Both the position numbers and the translations under genes were made by a program. Below are positions 1-14,651 of a stretch of 64,000 bases of DNA, one piece after another. Each line of letters starts with the position of its first letter. Position 1 is the stretch's first letter. The stretch spans positions 256,001 through 320,000 of the forward strand of contig CM000152.2 of NCBI GenBank assembly GCA_000004695.1. The letters run 5' to 3'. The notes beneath the pieces were generated by a model that made no database searches, was not told the origin of the DNA, and saw nothing but the letters and a program-made list of their open reading frames with translations. The stretch is from Dictyostelium discoideum. Taxonomy: Eukaryota.

Positions 1-194
1 TAACACATATTAATACTTTTAAAAAATTAAATAAAATTAATTTGAGATTTATTTTGATAGTTTTTGAAAAAAAAGATTTATTTTATTTTTTATTTTTTAT
101 TTTTTTTTTTTTAATTATATTATTTTAAATTGTTATGTTTGCTAATAATGGTAGTCTTTTGAATGAAAATAATTTTGTAATTCCGAAATATACC

Positions 195-1992
195 TTAAAA
201 TAAAGGATTAATTTCTTTAAGAATAAACATTATATCAGTGTAGTGATCACTTGCTGGAAGATCAGTATAATTTTCAAGTTTTTTCAATGCCGAGTTCAAA
301 ACTGATATGATATGGCCCTCTAGTTGGAATCTGAAATTCTTGGTGGTACATATGTATTTAACATTAAAATTACTATTGATAGTTAATCTATCTAAATAAA
401 TTGAATTATATGTAACATATGTTACTTTTTTATCTCTTTCAATTGAAATTGTCTTTTGTTTAAAATCTTTCCAAACATCATTACCACGAAAGCTTGAATT
501 ATTTACAAAATATTCATTTTCAATTTTAGCAATTTCAGTACCAACTTCATCAATCGATGGTCTAACATTGACATCAAGTGAACACATTCTATTAATTAGT
601 GATTCAAATGATAATGGAGTACTTTCAGGATAAATTAGTTTAAATCCATCTGAACGAATCATTCTAATTTGGAACTGTATTTACCAGTCATAGCAAGTAC
701 TATTAACTTTAATAGAAGTGATAAAAAAAAATAATAACAATAAATTAATAAATATATATTAATTAAAAGGATTGATTGATTAAATGAGTAATGAAGAACG
801 TACCTCCCATAAGACGATTCCAAGAGAAAAGATATCACAATGATGATCAAAAGTATAACCATCCCCACCTAATAATGGATCCATGTAACCAGCTGTACCA
901 ATTGGTTTCAAAAGAGTTCTTTTTGTATTCTTTTGATAATCAGCTATACCTCTTCCGGTACCAAAATCACTAATAACGATTCTACCATCATTTTGAACTA
1001 AAAAGTTGGCAGTTTTAATATCCCTGTGAACCATTTGTTCATCACGAAGACATCTCATTGATGCCAATATATCATCAATGATTTTAAAAATGGAATGCCC
1101 TTTGCAAACATTTTATTGATTTCAGATGGTTTTGATTGTAAATTGAATTGAGCCATTGGCATTATCAAAAAAGCGGATTCATTCATTGAACACCAAAAGT
1201 TTTAACAACCGTAGTTCCTTCATATTTACTAACTTGACCAACAGCTGCAATTTCTTTTGCGAAATTGATGAAGCAATTATTACTACCAAAAGCCATGGCC
1301 TTAAATGCTGCCAATCTACCATTCAAGCAGCCTCCATACACCATTGCATTACCGCCAGAGCCAATAGTAGAATCCATATCAACATAACCTCTTAAAGGAT
1401 CAATATTAGTTATACGTGATAAATGATTACAAAATGATTGAGTACCCAAGTTTTTATCATTTAGTGAAGTAATTTGACATTTTTTTAAAAGTGTATCCCA
1501 AGTTAATTTAATTTCATCTTTTATAAATATTTTTTTCCATTTTTTTAGTTCTTTTGATCTTCCAGTATAATCAAAATATTGATTTATATAGTTTTCCAAA
1601 TTTTCAAAAATAGAACCGGAAGTAAACTCTAATAAAATAAATGACGGAATAAATGATGATAATTTGAAAATTTTATATGTTTTTTTGATTTCCATTACTC
1701 TATATACTATTTCTCTAGAAACTAACTTTTTAGATCTTTTTTTACCAAATTCACCACCACCCAATAAAACCAATTTAATTATATTGAGATTTGCACGTTC
1801 AATTGAATAATCTAAAACAGTACGTAGTTTATTATCTTGAATTGAATAATCATAATTTTTTATATAATTGATAATTGATAAGCAAAGGCAAACCATCGAT
1901 TCATTGGGATTTTTCATTAATGAGTGAAATGGTGTTTGACCTTTTGCATTCTTCTTTTTGATTTGAATCTCTAAAATATTTTGGACCAGCAT
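195..1992 (-). CDS. Protein kinase (eukaryotic protein kinase catalytic domain with ankyrin-like N-terminal segment). Three coding blocks with a disrupted reading frame in the hinge region, so possibly a pseudogene.
   Basis: ORF 1183-1992 ends with the glycine loop GSGGNAMVYGG, the VAIK-type lysine (AFK) and the beta4 strand TTVVKTFGV. Block ~804-1097 carries IFKIIDDILASMRCLRDEQMVHRDIKTANFLV (catalytic loop) and DFGTGR. Block 195-681 is the C-lobe (DIFSLGIVLWE ... RPSIDEV). A probable intron lies at ~682-803 (GTACGT...ACAG, AT-rich). The beta5/hinge peptide (ESAFLIMPMAQFNLQSKPSEINK) is encoded at 1098-1182 in a third frame. Two -1 shifts, each at a short homopolymer, are needed to read through. 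The N-terminal part (KGQTPFHSLMKN...LNIIKLVL) looks like degenerate ankyrin repeats. The ATG at 1990-1992 is preceded by an in-frame TAA. Confidence 0.6.
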
Positions 1993-2120
1993 GTTTTAAT
2001 AAAAAATGAAGAAAACTATTTTTTTTGAATTTCATTTTCTAGTCAAATTTCTTTGTAAACATCATATAGATTTTTGTACTTTTTACATTTATTATCAGCT
2101 ATTATTACTCCAGTTAAATT

Positions 2121-2976
2121 TTATTTAGATAACGATTTGATAGCTTCAATATTTTCATAAAAACTCTTTGTTAATGAATTTTTTGGTTGACAATTTGCTA
2201 AACTGACTAATGATTTTTCAAAATAACTATCTTTAGGAGTTTCTGGTTGAGATTGCGGTGCTGTTTGAGATTCTGATACAGATGATTGAGAATCTAATAA
2301 TGTTGATGATGATTCTGATGAGTATAATAGTTGTTGGCTTTCTAATGGTGGAGATGGTTGAGATTCTAATACAGATGGTTGAAATTCTAATGGTGATGAT
2401 GATGATGGTGATGATGATGGTGATGATGGTGATGATTGGGATAATTGTTGTTGAATTTCTAATAATGGTGATGATGATGATGATGATGATGATGGTGATG
2501 ATGATGGTGATGATGGTGATGATGGTGATGATGGTGGTAATGGTGGAGATGGTTGAGATAATTGGGTTGGAGAATCTGGTGGTGATAAGTCAATTGGCGA
2601 ACTGGTGATGATTGTAAAAGAGATGATTGAAGACTTAATTGGATTGGTGATTGTGAAGGTGATTGATTTGGTGAATTAATTACAATTAATGGTACTTGGA
2701 ATGATACTTTTGTTTCAATATCATTTGAAGAATCAGAAGCAGACTTTAAGATAAAGTCAAATAATGATAGTTTTGTATGATCAACCTCTACGGACTTAAA
2801 AACGACACCAAATTTTTCAGCTTCATTATTTTCAGGGGTTGTATCACTATTGGTTTGGGAAGTATCACTTTCAGAGACAGTGAGTGAAACAATTTTTTTA
2901 AAATCTCTATCAGGATCTTTATCAAGATGTTCAAGATTTATTCCATATGTGTCAGTACCAACAAAATTTTTATATA
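2121..2976 (-). CDS. 3' terminal exon of a Ser/Pro/His-rich low-complexity protein; 5' exons not resolved
   Basis: An open frame on the minus strand with no ATG reads ...ELYKNFVGTDTYGINLEHLDKDPDRDF...SPNQSPSQSPIQLSLQSS...PPLPPSSPSSPSS...ENIEAIKSLSK and ends at a TAA around 2121. It is entered through a tttttattacag acceptor near 2976. The ORF-track entry 2258-2608(+) is its antisense frame. Confidence 0.35.
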
Positions 2977-3685
2977 GCTCTGTAATAAAAAATAATAATG
3001 CAACTTTATAATATCCAATGGAGTCTGGGTCTACTTTTTTTTCCCTACTTTTTTTTCCCTATTTTTTTTTTTTTTTGATTATTATTATTATCATTTATTA
3101 CTATATAAAATGTAAATATTTCAATTAATATGAAAATAGTATTATTAATTTTCTTTGTTTTAAATTTTAAAAATTGTTTGGCTTCATAATTTCTCAACCA
3201 AAAGGTAATTAATTGTTTTGAAAATTATAATGATAATTTATTACCTTATAATAGACATTTTTAATTTTTAAAATTAACATGTATTTCAGAAATAGATGAA
3301 TCAATCGTCAAATCTCATGGGCTGTTCAGTAATGAATGCTTGATGCTTTCAATAGTTATTTACCCTCTTCATAAATGATGAAAAAGTAGGCATTAACCCA
3401 GAAAGAAGTGCAAGTAAATTATGACAAGGATAATGATCGTAAAATTAAAAATAAGAATTGGTTGGTGATGTAAAATAAAATAAAATAAAATAAAATAAAT
3501 AGTTTCTCCTTTCTTTATTTTTTCCACTCAAATTATCCAGTATTACCAAAAAGTTCAAAAATTATTTAATCCAGATGAAAATAATAGAGTTTAAAAATTA
3601 ATTTTATATTATTTAATTTTAAAATCCATTAGTTTATTAATTAAATTAAATAAATTACCATTTTTATTTTATTTTATTTTATTTT

Positions 3686-6139
3686 TTAATATTTTAAATT
3701 AATATTTGAATTTTTTAAAATAAAATCTTTTAATTCAATACTACCATGAGTGGAAGCGATAATGTAACAATTTAAATAATCATCTTGAGTGAATAAATTC
3801 GAATGATTTGTAAACAAATGAGAGAAAACTTCTAAAGCATTCAATTCACCAATACTTTGTAATAATTTTGATAAAAACATGGTTTTACTTTGTTGATCTT
3901 GATTACGTTTATCCATTATAAAATTTAAAAAACTATCTAATGTTTCAAAATTACAACGTTTAATAATATCACTAAAAACTGAATAAAAAAATAAATGATC
4001 AATAAAATTTATCATTTTCCCTGTAGGTTTATAAAATTCATTAAATTTATAAATAATGTTATTGTTGTTGTTACTGTCAATTTCTTTACAATCAATATTT
4101 TGATAGTATTCTATGATTTCATTAAAAATTTTAATTGTTTTACATTTTTCAATTCCAAAACTATCATAAATACCAAAACTATTTGATAATTCATCTTTTA
4201 TTAAAAAACATCTTTTAGAATCAACATCTTGTCTATTTTCTAAAACCCATTTTAATTTTTCTTTAGAATTCAAACAACTGTATTGCATATCAATTGGTGT
4301 TAATTCTGAAACAATTATTATGAATTTCCATAATGGAATATTTGCCATAGGTAAAAATGGATTTATACTATCATTTTTATTATCATCATAATTATCAGTT
4401 TCATCTAAATAATAAATATTTACTTTTTTCTCCCAATTAATTGGATTACATATTGGTTGCTGTTGTGGTTGATCTTGTTGTTGTTGTTGTGATGGTGGTG
4501 GTTTAATTAATTTTAAATTTTCAATTTCAATTAAATTAACAGAAAGTAAGAAATTAAACATTTTCTGAGATTTTATGAATTTAAAATGATTTCTTTGTAT
4601 TTTAATGTTATTTTCAAGTAAACCAACTGGATGATTAATTAAAAATTGAATTAAATCAATATTTTCATTAATTATCAATATCATTATTATGACTTCAATT
4701 TTACCTTGATATATATATAATTTTGTAAAATAATCATTTATTAAAGAATCAATGAATTTTGATTTAACCGATTCTAAATGCTTTGGATTCTTTAATAGTA
4801 ATCCAAATAATGGATATTTTGGTATATTAAATTGAGATAAATTATTTAAAGATTGGAAAGCACCAATTGATTTCAATTTTTTATAATCACCCATTCCAAG
4901 TGCAAGTCTTACAGTTTTCTTATGAGAATACTCTGGGAAATAGTTATTATCAAATTTAGCATTACAAAACATTAAATTACTTCTAAGATGTAAACTACTC
5001 GTATAAAAAATAGACATTCTAACAATTGATCTAAATGATTGATTACAACAATCTAAATCCTTAACCAAACAATTCAATTGTCGTTGTAATTGTTGTTCAT
5101 CTCTAAATTTATCAAGTTGTTCAATTGATAAAATTACATTTTCAGCTTCTTTAGATTTATTTACAAATTCAACGAATTTATAATTTTTAAATAATTCTTT
5201 TAAATAAATTATTGAATAACATGTATTTAAACAAAATTCCAATGTTTTATTCTTTACTGAAAAATCAATTAATGATGTAAAATCATCATTATCATTATCA
5301 TCATCATTATTATTAATATTAATATTATTTTGTGGTGGTATTGAAATTTTAATTGAATTTAAAAAATGAATTGATTTATTTCTATTTTCCATTGCCCCAT
5401 ATAAAATTATTTTTTTTTTATAATTTTTATTTGAATAATCAATATTAATTAATTGATAATATATTTTTGATTTTTCATCTTCACTTAAAATACAACCAAT
5501 TTCATCTTTTAAATAATTTGCAATATTAATTGAACCAACAAGAATTGATTTATAATATAATGGTGACCAATTTATATTTTTATTTTTATTTTTACTACCA
5601 CCACCACTTCTTAAAATTGGTTTAAAATTATATTTTTTAATTAATATATCAAATGCTACAACACAGTCACATAATGTTATATAAAATGCTGTTGAATTAA
5701 TAATTGAACTATTATTATTATTATTATTATCAATATCATTAATAAAATATTTTGAATAATTTTTAAAAAGATTAAAATAAAATTCTTTATTCTTTTCACT
5801 ATTTTTTTTAAAATTTTTAAAAATCTCTTGAAAAGGAATTTTATTTGAATCAAATGTAAATTTTAAAATCATTGAATTTTTAACTTTATCTCTTAATAAT
5901 CCTTTATTATTAATTGACATTAAATCTACATTTTTTAATTGATAATAATTATAATAAATTCTATTTTCCAAAATTTCATCATTATAATATTGTTGTTGTT
6001 GTTGTTTTATTTTTAAATATTTAAATATAATTGTTTTAATATATTTATTTTTCCAAATTTTAAAAAATAAAAAATCCTTATTATTATTATTAATACTATT
6101 ATTATTATTATTATTACTATTTTTGTTGTTGTTGTCCAT
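3686..6139 (-). CDS. Asn-rich hypothetical protein (817 aa), member of a lineage-specific family; paralog of the partial gene at 62473+
   Basis: Uninterrupted 817-codon ORF with a real ATG and an N-terminal polyN run. It shares the motif block ...LFKNYSKYF...(F/A)Y(I/T)...CDCVV... with the ORF starting at 62473. No recognisable catalytic domain. Confidence 0.6.
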   Translation of the reverse strand: MDNNNKNSNNNNNNSINNNNKDFLFFKIWKNKYIKTIIFKYLKIKQQQQQYYNDEILENRIYYNYYQLKNVDLMSINNKGLLRDKVKNSMILKFTFDSNKIPFQEIFKNFKKNSEKNKEFYFNLFKNYSKYFINDIDNNNNNNSSIINSTAFYITLCDCVVAFDILIKKYNFKPILRSGGGSKNKNKNINWSPLYYKSILVGSINIANYLKDEIGCILSEDEKSKIYYQLINIDYSNKNYKKKIILYGAMENRNKSIHFLNSIKISIPPQNNININNNDDDNDNDDFTSLIDFSVKNKTLEFCLNTCYSIIYLKELFKNYKFVEFVNKSKEAENVILSIEQLDKFRDEQQLQRQLNCLVKDLDCCNQSFRSIVRMSIFYTSSLHLRSNLMFCNAKFDNNYFPEYSHKKTVRLALGMGDYKKLKSIGAFQSLNNLSQFNIPKYPLFGLLLKNPKHLESVKSKFIDSLINDYFTKLYIYQGKIEVIIMILIINENIDLIQFLINHPVGLLENNIKIQRNHFKFIKSQKMFNFLLSVNLIEIENLKLIKPPPSQQQQQDQPQQQPICNPINWEKKVNIYYLDETDNYDDNKNDSINPFLPMANIPLWKFIIIVSELTPIDMQYSCLNSKEKLKWVLENRQDVDSKRCFLIKDELSNSFGIYDSFGIEKCKTIKIFNEIIEYYQNIDCKEIDSNNNNNIIYKFNEFYKPTGKMINFIDHLFFYSVFSDIIKRCNFETLDSFLNFIMDKRNQDQQSKTMFLSKLLQSIGELNALEVFSHLFTNHSNLFTQDDYLNCYIIASTHGSIELKDFILKNSNINLKY

Positions 6140-6159
6140 TTTTTAAATATAATACAAAT

Positions 6160-6197
<38 letters not shown>

Positions 6198-6492
6198 AAA
6201 AAAAAAAAAAAAAATTTAAAAAAATGAAAATAAGATGGAATTATAATTTTTAAATTAATTAATATTTAAATTTTTATTTTATTTTCTTTTTTTTTTCTTT
6301 TTATTTTTATTTTTATTTTTTTTATTTTTATTTTTATTTTTTTTTTTAAATTAATTACACACTCTTTCAAAATTCCTTATTTATATTTTTTACAACCTAA
6401 GTAGAAATAAAAAAAAGAGTGATAATTATATATATTATATATTATTTCTTTCTTGATTTTATATTATTATTATTATTTTTTTTTTTTTTTTA

Positions 6493-7444
6493 TTACAATT
6501 GTAAATCTAAAACAATTTTTCTACCATGACCAGATTGTTGTGATTTTAATAAAGCTTGATCAAATTCAGAGAATTTATGTTTTTCAATTAAAAGTTTAAA
6601 TTGTTTCTTACGGATAAGATCAAAGATAGCATCATAGACAGATTGTTTTTCAGAGTCAGTATGTTGTTCAAACCATTTATTTAACCAAAAACCACGAATT
6701 TGAATGTTACGGAAGATCAATTGAGAGGTTGGAATGGTGACTGGTTCACGAGACATACCACCATAAGTGACCAAGGTACCATTGTCAGCGAGGATTCTTG
6801 ATAACTCGGTGGCGGATTGACCACCGACGGCGTTTAATGCCAATTTTGGTGATGGTAAATCAGAGATTAATTTTCTGAATGCTGGTGTACGAACGTACTC
6901 TTCAGAGACGACGATGTCGCCACCCAACTGCTTGAGACGTTGGACGTTGTCTTCGAATTCTGAACCGTCACGAATGACATTGATGGTTTTGATACCACGT
7001 GCCTTTGCCAATTGAATGACTGACAAACCAACCATTGAGTTGGATGCGTTTTGAATGATGACATCGCCTTGTTGTAACTTTACGAAATCGTTCAATAACA
7101 AATAGGCAGTGGTTGGATTGATTGAAATGGTGGATAAGTATTCGGTTGGAATGTCTGATGGTACTTTAAATAATTGTTGTTCACTCCAAACACCTTTACT
7201 TCTCCATGATCCAAAGTGTTGTTTCATTGATGGTACTACTAAATCATTCTCTTTTAATCCTGTAACACCACTACCAACCTTTTTAACAACACCAACACCT
7301 TCCATACCTGCTACACCTCCAACTTGAACATTTGTACCATAAGTACCTTGAATAATATTTAAATCTGCTGGATTAATTGGTGCATGTAACATTTCAACTA
7401 AAACATCTTTATTTGAAATTTTATCTGTAATATTTTCATTTTCA

Positions 7445-7484
<40 letters not shown>

Positions 7485-7754
7485 AATATAGATATATTAA
7501 TATTTTTTTAATTTAATTTTTATTTATTCATTGCACTAAAAATATTGGGGAAACTTCCCCCTTCTGTGATCAACAATTTGGTTTAACCACACATACATGA
7601 TTTTTATTATTTTTTTTTTTTTTATTTTTTAATTTTTTTTTTTTAAAAAAACTTACTTTAAAGCAGTTGATGGTGAACCATGTGAAGCGATTTTAACACT
7701 TCTTGAAGTTGAATAACGACGAACTAATGAAATGATATTACGAGTAGAATTCAT
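6493..7754 (-). CDS. mecr: Mitochondrial trans-2-enoyl-CoA reductase (MECR/Etr1-like; medium-chain dehydrogenase/reductase superfamily), 2 exons
   Basis: Exon 2 (6493 to ~7447) encodes ...VLVEMLHAPINPADLNIIQGTYG...NASNSMVGLSVIQLAKARGIKTINVIRD..., which matches MECR. Exon 1 (~7657-7754) encodes MNSTRNIISLVRRYSTSRSVKIASHGSPSTAL, a basic/Ser-rich mitochondrial presequence, then a GTAAGT donor. The intron is ~210 nt. Confidence 0.8.
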
Positions 7755-7803
7755 TGTTTGATTAAATGTATGAATGAATTATATGCTGTATTAAATTGAA
7801 AAT

Positions 7804-7839
<36 letters not shown>

Positions 7840-8254
7840 AAAAAAAAAAAAAAAAAAAAAAATCAAAAAATTTTTTTTATTTTTCTTTTTTTCAAAAAAA
7901 TGAAAAAATTATTTTACGCACCGTAGTTCGAAAAACATATTTTTTTTATTTAATTTTGTTTTATTTTTTTTTTATTTTTTTATTCCATTCGTCTAAAAAA
8001 TTTTTCGTTTTATATTTTCAGATTTATTTATTTATATAAATATATAAATAATAAATAAATAAAAATAATTTTTTTTTTTTTTTTTTTTTTTGAACATAAT
8101 TTATTAAATGAATAAAATTATAACAAAAAAATAAGTAATAATAATATTTAATATTAATAATCTATAAATTTATAGTTGTATTCTTGCATACTCCAATTAA
8201 TGAAATTTTAAAAATAAAAAAAAATAAAAAAATAAAAATAAAAAAATAAAAAAA

Positions 8255-14651
<6,397 letters not shown>

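What the first reader, a model, noticed from the sequence alone, without database searches (positions are those of the whole stretch)
1098..1182. Protein kinase gene with two -1 frameshifts inside the beta5/hinge coding segment
Upstream (1183-1992) the frame ends ...TTVVKTFGVQ-TGA. The indispensable beta5/hinge peptide ESAFLIMPMAQFNLQSKPSEINK is present but sits in frame +2. The catalytic-loop exon resumes (NVCKGHSIFKIIDDILASMRCL...HRDIKTANFLV...DFG) in yet another frame. Each shift maps to a short homopolymer (tttgg/gtg region and aataaaatg). Adding one base at each point gives a continuous, fully canonical kinase. The 85-nt stretch is too short and too GC-balanced to be an intron. That leaves three options: (a) sequencing or assembly indels, (b) a very recent pseudogene, or (c) programmed frameshifting, the least likely.
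Basis: seen in the sequence. Interest (0 to 1): 0.6.

Follow-up and report, generated by a model that had tools for sequence, protein, structure and literature searches.

The report
Known dead kinase gene in Dictyostelium
The two reading-frame breaks are real small deletions in a Dictyostelium discoideum protein-kinase pseudogene that was catalogued in 2006, so the finding is correct in outline but ordinary.

Summary
The window is D. discoideum AX4-type DNA; the neighbouring ORF is exactly DDB_G0278093.

Break 1 is the loss of one T from a TTT run at 1190-1189. Break 2 is a 7-nt deletion (TTGGAAA, junction 1095/1094). It is not a 1-nt slip at 'aataaaatg'.

These two breaks are not the only lesions. 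Against intact syntenic orthologues in two sibling lineages, the gene also carries:
- two in-frame stops (TAA 2123-2121, TAG 2041-2039);
- +1 nt near 2054, a 41-nt deletion at 1964/1963 and a 31-nt deletion at 675/674;
- an 11/23-nt insertion at 2609-2587 and +1 nt near 201.

A second D. discoideum assembly is identical across the locus, so sequencing error is very unlikely. A 99.5%-identical allele from six SRA runs shares the older lesions but lacks both hinge frameshifts and the TAG. Those three are therefore late hits specific to the AX4 lineage, probably in a gene that was already disabled.

Goldberg et al. 2006 list this exact sequence as pseudogene DDB0204413ps (family Other/Dicty6), with the same two frameshifts marked. 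Verdict: already known, low interest.

The parts
156..2938 (-). Whole pseudogene DDB0204413ps (family Other/Dicty6): a Ser/Pro-rich N-terminal region, an Ank-like region, a protein-kinase domain and a C-terminal extension. This is the span homologous to the intact 922-aa orthologue P0001.
   Evidence: tblastn of P0001 against the window tiles residues 16-917 through frames -3, -2, -3, -1, -3, -2. DNA alignments to L001 and L010. Table S2 of PMC1420674.
1183..1992 (-). A 269-aa ORF fragment holding the Ank-like repeats and the kinase N-lobe up to beta4 (GSGGNAMVY, AAFK, AKEIAAVG). It ends at the premature TGA 1185-1183. Its ATG at 1992 is accidental, brought into frame by the 41-nt deletion.
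   Evidence: weak Ank_2 hit, no kinase hit on its own; annotated as KAM9948692.1, hypothetical protein ACTFIT_009890.
1189..1190 (-). Frameshift 1. One T is lost from a TTT run: GGTGTTTCAATG becomes GGTGTTCAATG. It is specific to the AX4 lineage.
   Evidence: The base is present in the Logan allele L003 and in L010 (GTTTCA), and in L001 as GTCTCT.
1094..1189 (-). Beta5/hinge/alphaD coding segment (S)MNESAFLIMPMAQFNLQSKPSEINKMFAKGI. It is stranded in its own frame between the two frameshifts.
1132..1133 (-). In-frame 9-nt deletion that removes the residues KLS. It is shared with the Logan allele, so it is older.
1094..1095 (-). Frameshift 2. A 7-nt deletion (TTGGAAA, or equivalently TGGAAAT) removes Trp-Lys from GIWKSIFKI. 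It is specific to the AX4 lineage.
   Evidence: The 7 nt are present in L003, L001 and L010. W is invariant across the family alignment.
804..1093 (-). Catalytic core in the third frame: SIFKIIDDILASMRCL..., HRD at 1028-1020, DFG at 968-960, up to ...SLGIVLWE.
   Evidence: Pkinase 62.1 bits for this piece..
1100..1193 (-). Cryptic in-phase GT..AG pair, 94 nt, 30.9% GC, with a weak donor GTGTTC. It would join ...VVKTFG|HSIFKII... and skip beta5/hinge. This is a bogus intron, not a real one.
   Evidence: The general description of such masked lesions is in PMC1420674.
707..803 (-). True intron, 97 nt, GTACGT...AAAG, 16.5% GC. Its position is conserved in the orthologues.
   Evidence: The P0001 protein joins LWE|LIVLAMTG.
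674..675 (-). A 31-nt frameshifting deletion in the alphaF-alphaG region; the residues RPITTLFKGD are lost. It is shared with the Logan allele, so it is older.
195..662 (-). A 155-aa ORF fragment holding the end of the kinase C-lobe (..NVRPSIDEV..) and the C-terminal extension. An extra base near 201 gives an early stop.
   Evidence: (annotated as KAM9948691.1, ACTFIT_009889).
1963..1964 (-). A 41-nt frameshifting deletion inside the first Ank-like repeat. It is shared with the Logan allele.
2039..2041 (-). TAG stop in the orthologue-matching frame. The Logan allele and L010 have AAG here. It is specific to the AX4 lineage.
2053..2055 (-). A 1-nt insertion in an A run (ACAAAG against AC-AAG). 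It shifts the frame and is shared with the Logan allele.
2121..2123 (-). In-frame TAA where both intact orthologues have TTA (Leu). It is shared with the Logan allele.
2587..2609 (-). Extra 23 nt relative to L001, or 11 nt relative to L010. Both are 2 mod 3, giving a frameshift in the Ser/Pro-rich N-terminal region. The Logan contig does not cover this site.

Best explanation
This is a unitary, multiply disabled pseudogene of a Dictyostelium-specific protein kinase: DDB0204413ps, group Other, family Dicty6. It lies next to DDB_G0278093 in D. discoideum of AX4 type.

The ancestral gene encoded about 920-965 aa: a Ser/Pro-rich N-terminus, Ank-like repeats, a kinase domain and a C-terminal extension. 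It is still intact at the same syntenic position in two sibling lineages. In the D. discoideum lineage it acquired a nonsense codon, a 1-nt insertion, a 41-nt deletion and a 31-nt deletion.

Later, in the lineage leading to the reference strain, ordinary replication errors added three more lesions:
- loss of one T from a TTT run (1190-1189);
- a 7-nt deletion (1095/1094);
- an AAG to TAG change (2041-2039).

They put the beta5/hinge peptide in its own frame.

The lesions themselves and their polarity are shown by the data. That the gene was already non-functional before the two hinge lesions arose, and that no functional product is made now, are inferences.
For: Identity of the locus:
- GC is 22.9%.
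- The 817-aa neighbouring ORF is identical to XP_642117.2, DDB_G0278093 of D. discoideum AX4.
- Table S2 of Goldberg et al. 2006 (PMC1420674) gives this very sequence under DDB0204413ps/DDB0233273p, 'Other, Dicty6, pseudogene'. It marks X at the same two places...EGTTVVXNFWCSMNESAFLIMPMAQFNLQSKPSEINKMFAKxHSIFKII....

The lesions are real:
- Assembly GCA_054883475.1 (L002) matches window 1..14159 with 0 mismatches. It differs only in the length of four long intergenic A/T runs, so it is a separate record yet identical across the gene.

Intact orthologues:
- P0001 (922 aa, D. cf. discoideum) is 79% identical to the repaired protein. It has a continuous ORF through the whole kinase region and a full-length Pkinase match of 99 bits.
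- L010 (GCA_054859385.1) has open stretches of 803 and 204 aa, and P0001 aligns to it in a single frame.
- Both loci are colinear with the window's flanks.

Lesion catalogue and polarity.

Relative age:
- The Logan allele (L003-L008, six SRA runs, 11 SNPs in 2094 nt) shares the TAA, the +1, the 41-nt, 9-nt and 31-nt deletions.
- It reads straight through both hinge sites (...GVSMNESAF...AKGIWKSIFKII...) and has AAG instead of TAG.
- It carries its own deletion of about 190 nt at the 3' end.

Divergence from the intact orthologue gives dN/dS 0.45 at dS 0.19, an intermediate value compatible with partial relaxation of constraint.
Against: - No expression data could be examined, so a residual transcript or a truncated product cannot be excluded. 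An example would be the 269-aa Ank/N-lobe ORF.
- The claim that the gene was dead before the hinge lesions rests on lesions that could in principle be bypassed. The TAA, the +1 and the 41-nt deletion lie upstream of possible internal start codons. The 31-nt deletion can be skipped in frame through the acceptor ACAG|TTCC, as in the 2006 model (LWE|FQIRM...).
- The 11 SNPs between the two D. discoideum-type alleles split 7 non-synonymous to 4 synonymous. That is too few to prove neutrality.
- The strain behind the SRA runs is unknown.
- The independence of the second assembly's reads is inferred only from homopolymer-length differences.
Confidence: 0.95

Rival explanations
1. The gene is intact in the organism, and the two shifts are sequencing or assembly indel errors in this record.
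For: The first shift lies in a short T run (TTT to TT), a classic site for such errors. A closely related allele is in frame at both sites.
Against: - A second assembly of the same strain type is identical at every base of the gene, although it differs from the window in long homopolymers elsewhere.
- The second shift is a 7-nt deletion in non-repetitive sequence, which is not a homopolymer miscount.
- The same record carries intact ORFs of 817 and 1416 aa nearby.
- The gene has at least six other disabling lesions, so repairing these two would not restore it.
- The 2006 kinome paper classes this locus as a pseudogene and states, as a general method, that individual reads were inspected where frameshifts or stops blocked the best gene model.
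Confidence: 0.02
2. The kinase core was still functional until very recently, as a truncated gene using an internal start and an alternative acceptor. On this view the two hinge frameshifts are the actual inactivating events in the laboratory-strain lineage.
For: - The Logan allele keeps a 381-aa ORF from an internal Met through the N-lobe, hinge, HRD and DFG. Its Pkinase score is 78 bits over profile positions 4-190 of 263.
- The older lesions lie upstream of that Met, or can be spliced around in frame.
- The SNP pattern between the alleles (7 non-synonymous, 4 synonymous) is not clearly neutral.
Against: - Relative to two intact orthologues, the shared lesions remove the roughly 300-aa N-terminal region and part of the first Ank-like repeat.
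- They also remove either 10 residues plus the frame, or with the alternative acceptor about 21 residues, of the alphaF-alphaG core of the C-lobe.
- The Logan allele has independently lost about 190 nt of the 3' coding end, which fits a locus that is already unconstrained.
Confidence: 0.1
3. Two programmed -1 ribosomal frameshifts produce a full-length kinase from the shifted frames.
For: Both shifts go in the -1 direction. A U_UUA_AAA heptamer at 1088-1082 lies in the correct register inside the overlap of the second pair of frames.
Against: - There is no slippery heptamer in the permitted interval of the first shift, 1203-1186.
- Such heptamers occur about 66 times per kb per strand in this AT-rich window, so about one is expected by chance in that overlap.
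- The TTTAAAA heptamer is ancestral coding sequence, read in frame as S-I-F-K-I in the intact alleles.
- The region has no unusual RNA structure (z = +0.39).
- Relatives encode the same peptide in a single frame, so the shifts are deletions and not conserved recoding signals.
- Five or more further lesions would remain.
Confidence: 0.005
4. The segment 1193..1100 is a genuine intron, and the gene encodes a kinase-like protein without beta5/hinge.
For: The GT at 1193 and the AG at 1100 are in compatible phase and give an open product ...VVKTFG|HSIFKII....
Against: - The stretch has 30.9% GC, against 16.5% for the true intron and under 15% typical for the species (PMC1420674).
- The donor is weak (GTGTTC).
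- The stretch encodes conserved residues that four relatives read in frame as exon.
- Removing beta5, the hinge and alphaD is incompatible with a kinase fold; this point rests on established knowledge of the fold.
- The other lesions remain.
Confidence: 0.02

Closest known systems
DDB0204413ps / DDB0233273p, one of the 15 ePK pseudogenes of Goldberg et al. 2006 (PLoS Genet 2:e38, PMC1420674)
   Same: It is the same locus and the same sequence, with the same two frameshifts marked X and the same classification (Other group, Dicty6 family, pseudogene).
   Different: As far as the stored text shows, the published model starts at the accidental ATG (1992), marks only these two lesions, and splices LWE|FQ across the 31-nt deletion. 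The present comparison adds four things:
- the N-terminal region of about 300 aa;
- at least six further lesions;
- the exact nature of the second shift (7 nt);
- the finding that the locus is a unitary pseudogene and not a decayed duplicate of a Dicty6 paralogue.
Functional Dicty6 kinases DDB0229339 and DDB0231196, and the DDB0229339-like P0004
   Same: They share the architecture: a low-complexity N-terminus, Ank-like repeats, a kinase domain with KEIAAVG, VVKT.GV, GIW.SIFKI, HRD.KTANFLV and SDFG, and a C-terminal extension.
   Different: P0004 is only about 35% identical to the repaired protein. These are paralogues, not the source of a recent duplication.
Intact orthologues ACTFIY_005107 (D. 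cf. discoideum, P0001) and the 965-aa gene of GCA_054859385.1 (L010)
   Same: They occupy the syntenic position between the DDB_G0278093 orthologue and the downstream gene of about 855 aa. Nucleotide identity is 81-86%, and the intron position is the same.
   Different: Their reading frames are open throughout. They define the ancestral state at every lesion.
Unitary pseudogenes, that is lineage-specific loss of a single-copy gene such as primate GULO (named from general knowledge)
   Same: There is an orthologous intact gene in sister lineages, no functional copy at the locus, and an accumulation of stops and indels.
   Different: Here some of the lesions are still variable between closely related strains. 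The reference lineage and the Logan allele each carry private lesions.
Programmed -1 ribosomal frameshifting
   Same: Only the direction of the shifts matches, plus a chance heptamer at the second site.
   Different: There is no heptamer at the first site, no stimulatory structure, and no conservation. Relatives read the segment in frame.

Membership tests
Pseudogene (disabled copy of a protein-coding gene) | Full-length homology to a functional protein-coding gene | tested here: met
   tblastn of the intact 922-aa P0001 covers residues 16-917 on the window. DNA identity to L001 is 86%.
Pseudogene (disabled copy of a protein-coding gene) | Frameshifts and/or stop codons inside otherwise conserved coding sequence | tested here: met
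   Five frame switches before the intron and one after it, plus TAA 2123-2121, TAG 2041-2039 and TGA 1185-1183.
Pseudogene (disabled copy of a protein-coding gene) | The lesions are real in the genome and not errors of one record | tested here: met
   A second assembly is identical over window 1..14159 apart from four long intergenic A/T runs. Four lesions are also present in contigs from six SRA runs. Raw reads could not be inspected here.
Pseudogene (disabled copy of a protein-coding gene) | Relaxed selective constraint | tested here: inconclusive
   dN/dS against the intact orthologue is 0.45, and 0.91 in the N-terminal region. Between the two D. discoideum-type alleles there are 7 non-synonymous and 4 synonymous SNPs. 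No close outgroup branch test was possible.
Pseudogene (disabled copy of a protein-coding gene) | No functional protein product | not testable with these tools
   This needs RNA-seq, RT-PCR or proteomics. The 2006 paper reports residual transcription for 9 of its 15 pseudogenes, but the per-gene figure is not held.
Unitary pseudogene (as opposed to duplicated or processed) | An intact orthologue at the syntenic position in sister lineages, with the intron retained | tested here: met
   L001 and L010 are colinear with the window's flanks and carry open genes of 922 and 965 aa. The intron at 803..707 is conserved.
Eukaryotic protein kinase domain (Pfam PF00069), Dicty6 family | A Pkinase profile match that includes the VAIK-type Lys, HRD and DFG | tested here: met
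AAFK, HRDIKTAN and DFG are present. As encoded, only fragments match. The Dicty6 assignment is taken from PMC1420674.
Programmed -1 ribosomal frameshift site | An X_XXY_YYZ heptamer in register at each shift | tested here: not met
   There is none in 1203-1186. One heptamer (TTTAAAA, 1088-1082) lies at the second site, at chance frequency.
Programmed -1 ribosomal frameshift site | A downstream stimulatory RNA structure, and conservation of the shift in relatives | tested here: not met
   The fold z-score is +0.39. All four relatives are in frame.
Spliceosomal intron of Dictyostelium | GT..AG with compatible phase | tested here: met
   1193..1100, 94 nt, gives an open product.
Spliceosomal intron of Dictyostelium | AT-rich (typically under 15% GC) and non-coding | tested here: not met
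   The stretch has 30.9% GC against 16.5% for the true intron. It encodes the conserved beta5/hinge, which is exonic in relatives. The criterion comes from PMC1420674.

The most novel reading that the evidence does not exclude
The locus is a unitary pseudogene caught in ongoing decay that differs between strains. The reference-strain lineage has private lesions: the two hinge frameshifts and a TAG. Another D. discoideum-type lineage has a different private lesion, a 3' deletion of about 190 nt. Two sibling lineages keep the gene intact.

This revises the 2006 view of the locus as a decayed duplicate of a Dicty6 parent. It also offers a small, datable series of neutral mutations, in which about a third of the events are indels, in a genome of 23% GC.

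A bolder version is that the kinase core remained functional, as a truncated gene, until the hinge frameshifts arose in the NC4/AX4 lineage.
Probability: 0.75. Interest if true: 0.2.

Novelty: already known. Interest (0 to 1): 0.1.

Why it matters
It matters little beyond annotation hygiene. The frameshifts are a documented feature of a catalogued kinase pseudogene.

The practical points are these:
- GenBank still carries the fragments as separate hypothetical proteins: KAM9948692.1, KAM9948691.1 and a 296-aa piece.
- The published pseudogene model is incomplete at both ends.
- The locus is an example of lineage-specific loss of a Dictyostelium-specific kinase, with lesions that vary among close strains. 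It could serve as a strain marker or a small neutral-mutation sample.

Tried and rejected
- Programmed frameshifting was rejected. I searched for slippery heptamers and folded 1215..1060 as RNA. There is no heptamer at site 1, a chance-level heptamer at site 2, and no structure.
- An intron reading was rejected. I enumerated GT/AG pairs. One pair is in phase, but it was rejected on composition and on the coding conservation of the stretch.
- Sequencing error was rejected from the comparison with a second assembly.
- I looked for AX4-type contigs in SRA-derived assemblies using the 269-aa ORF. Only the NCBI assembly was returned.
- I tried to identify the strain behind the SRA runs by full-text search of the accession numbers. 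There were no hits.
- The main text of the kinome paper does not mention this pseudogene by name, and the per-gene EST and RT-PCR data of its Figure 6 are not held.
- tRNA and Rfam scans of the whole window found nothing.
- The SNP-based neutrality test between the two alleles was too small to decide.
- The 5' end was left unresolved. The orthologue's first mini-exon MLPIFSLEYL has no ATG counterpart around window 3100, but the orthologue's automated 5' model is itself uncertain.
Full report
**What is in the sequence**

The window has 22.9% GC. On the minus strand the reading frame that carries ...GSGGNAMVY...AAFK...AKEIAAVGQVSKYEGTTVVKTFGVQ stops at TGA 1185-1183. The peptide MNESAFLIMPMAQFNLQSKPSEINKMFAKGI is open in a second frame. 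SIFKIIDDILASMRCLRDEQMVHRDIKTANFLVQNDGRIVISDFG... runs in a third frame.

- The 269-aa upstream ORF alone gives no kinase hit.
- The catalytic piece gives 62.1 bits.
- A conceptual repair gives 90.7 bits across profile positions 4-257 of 263.

**Identity of the locus**

The neighbouring 817-aa ORF (3686-6139, minus strand) is identical to XP_642117.2, DDB_G0278093 of D. discoideum AX4.

Table S2 of Goldberg et al. 2006 (PLoS Genet 2:e38, PMC1420674) contains this very sequence as DDB0204413ps/DDB0233273p. It is classed 'Other, Dicty6, pseudogene', with frameshift marks at the same two places...EGTTVVXNFWCSMNESAFLIMPMAQFNLQSKPSEINKMFAKxHSIFKII.... That paper describes 15 ePK pseudogenes recognised by frameshifts or stops in conserved regions. 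It says these were often masked in automated models by bogus introns or truncation, and that as a general method reads were inspected where frameshifts blocked a gene model. The finding is thus already known.

**Exact nature of the two shifts**

Its locus L001 has a continuous ORF through the whole N-terminal, Ank-like and kinase region, and a second exon after one intron.

The DNA alignment is 86% identical. Together with four-way alignments, it shows the following:
- Shift 1 is the loss of one T from a TTT run: GGTGTTTCAATG becomes GGTGTTCAATG (window 1190-1189).
- Shift 2 is a 7-nt deletion, GGCAT[TTGGAAA]TCCATT (junction 1095/1094). It removes Trp-Lys from the family-conserved GIWKSIFKI.

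That placement is wrong, and so is the junction SEINK|NVCKGHS.

**The gene has many more lesions**

tblastn of P0001 on the window tiles through frames -3, -2, -3, -1, -3, -2. Relative to both intact orthologues, the window has:
- an 11/23-nt insertion at 2609-2587;
- an in-frame TAA at 2123-2121, where the orthologues have TTA;
- +1 nt near 2054;
- a TAG at 2041-2039;
- a 41-nt deletion at 1964/1963;
- the two hinge deletions;
- a 31-nt deletion at 675/674, in the alphaF-alphaG region;
- +1 nt near 201;
- several in-frame indels (15 nt, 9 nt and 3 nt).

Adding two bases therefore does not give a complete kinase or gene.

**Not a sequencing artefact**

Assembly GCA_054883475.1 (L002, locus tags ACTFIT) matches window 1..14159 with no mismatch. 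It differs only in the lengths of four long intergenic A/T runs, near window 7844, 7812, 7452 and 6197. It is thus a distinct record, yet identical through the whole gene. Its annotation splits the pseudogene into three hypothetical proteins of 296, 269 and 155 aa.

**Orthology and polarity**

L001 (D. cf. discoideum) and L010 (GCA_054859385.1, labelled D. discoideum but about 9% divergent in the flanks) are both colinear with the window's flanking genes: ADH, the DDB_G0278093 orthologue, the kinase, and a gene of about 855 aa. Both carry open kinase genes of 922 and 965 aa; L010 has open stretches of 803 and 204 aa. The window's gene is therefore a unitary pseudogene. Every lesion listed above is derived in the D. 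discoideum lineage.

**Relative age of the lesions**

Cluster look-up of the 269-aa ORF turned up a 381-aa protein, P0041, from SRA-derived (Logan) contigs in six runs. These contigs, L003-L008, are identical in their core. They cover window 2429..87 and differ from the window by 11 SNPs in 2094 nt.
- They share the TAA, the +1, and the 41-nt, 15-nt, 9-nt and 31-nt deletions.
- They read straight through both hinge sites (...TFGVSMNESAF...MFAKGIWKSIFKII...) and have AAG instead of TAG.
- They carry a private deletion of about 190 nt (window 343..154, microhomology TACCA) that removes the 3' coding end.

The two frameshifts of the finding are therefore late hits specific to the reference lineage. 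They struck a locus that already carried four disabling lesions, and the other lineage has decayed independently.

One caveat applies. The older lesions lie upstream of possible internal starts, or can be skipped through the alternative acceptor used in the 2006 model (LWE|FQIRM). A truncated gene that stayed alive until recently cannot be strictly excluded. The SNP split (7 non-synonymous, 4 synonymous) and the pairwise dN/dS of 0.45 at dS 0.19 do not settle this.

**Rivals**

Programmed -1 frameshifting:
- There is no X_XXY_YYZ heptamer in the interval allowed for shift 1.
- The in-register TTTAAAA at 1088-1082 is expected by chance. Such heptamers occur about 66 times per kb per strand, and TTTAAAA itself occurs 300 times in the window.
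- That heptamer is ancestral S-I-F-K-I coding sequence.
- The RNA fold is unremarkable (z = +0.39).
- Relatives read the segment in one frame.

Intron:
- One GT..AG pair (1193..1100, 94 nt) is in phase and would give ...VVKTFG|HSIFKII....
- It has 30.9% GC and a weak donor, and it encodes conserved beta5/hinge residues.
- It is therefore the kind of bogus intron that the 2006 paper warns about.
- The true intron is 803..707 (97 nt, 16.5% GC).

**Verdict**

It is a published pseudogene, so the novelty rating is 'already known' and interest is low. The new increments are modest:
- a fuller lesion map;
- the 7-nt nature of shift 2;
- the unitary status of the pseudogene, with intact orthologues in two sibling lineages;
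- lesions that vary between closely related strains.

Noticed in passing
window 154-343 (compare L003 2090-2094): The SRA-derived D. discoideum-type allele has its own deletion of about 190 nt. It removes the last ~47 codons and the stop of the C-terminal ORF, and is joined at a TACCA microhomology. The same pseudogene is decaying independently in another lineage.
   Followed up: partly
window 195-662, 1183-1992 and about 2100-3000; L002 10882-13945: GenBank assembly GCA_054883475.1 annotates the pseudogene fragments as three separate hypothetical proteins of 296, 269 and 155 aa, including KAM9948692.1 and KAM9948691.1. Old UniParc entries hold the 269-, 92- and 155-aa pieces. These are annotation artefacts of a dead gene.
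   Followed up: partly
L010 (GCA_054859385.1) against window 46-14000: An assembly labelled Dictyostelium discoideum (locus tags ACTFIR) is only about 91-92% identical to the window in the flanking genes. That is about as divergent as the assembly labelled D. cf. discoideum (85-91%). This suggests cryptic species or a labelling problem within 'D. discoideum'.
   Followed up: no
window 6197, 7452, 7812, 7844: The only differences between the window and the second AX4-type assembly over 14 kb are length differences of 3 to 8 nt in intergenic A/T homopolymers longer than 17 nt.
   Followed up: yes
window 2400-2560: A (CAT/CAC)n-type triplet repeat in the N-terminal coding region reads as Ser/Pro-rich in the gene's frame and as poly-His in another frame. 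It is expanded by 69 + 30 nt relative to the D. cf. discoideum orthologue.
   Followed up: no
window 3686-6139: DDB_G0278093 (817 aa) has no Pfam domain and evolves fast. It is 90% identical to the ACTFIR orthologue (723 aa model) and only 34% identical to the D. firmibasis homologue. The search returned only three homologues at E <= 1e-30.
   Followed up: no
window 1-64000: The 64-kb window has no tRNA genes (ARAGORN) and no Rfam family at gathering threshold.
   Followed up: yes
window 1990-1992: The ATG that opens the 269-aa ORF is accidental. It lies out of frame in the orthologues (K-H-A-G-P) and is brought into frame only by the 41-nt deletion. In the Logan allele it is ATT.
   Followed up: yes
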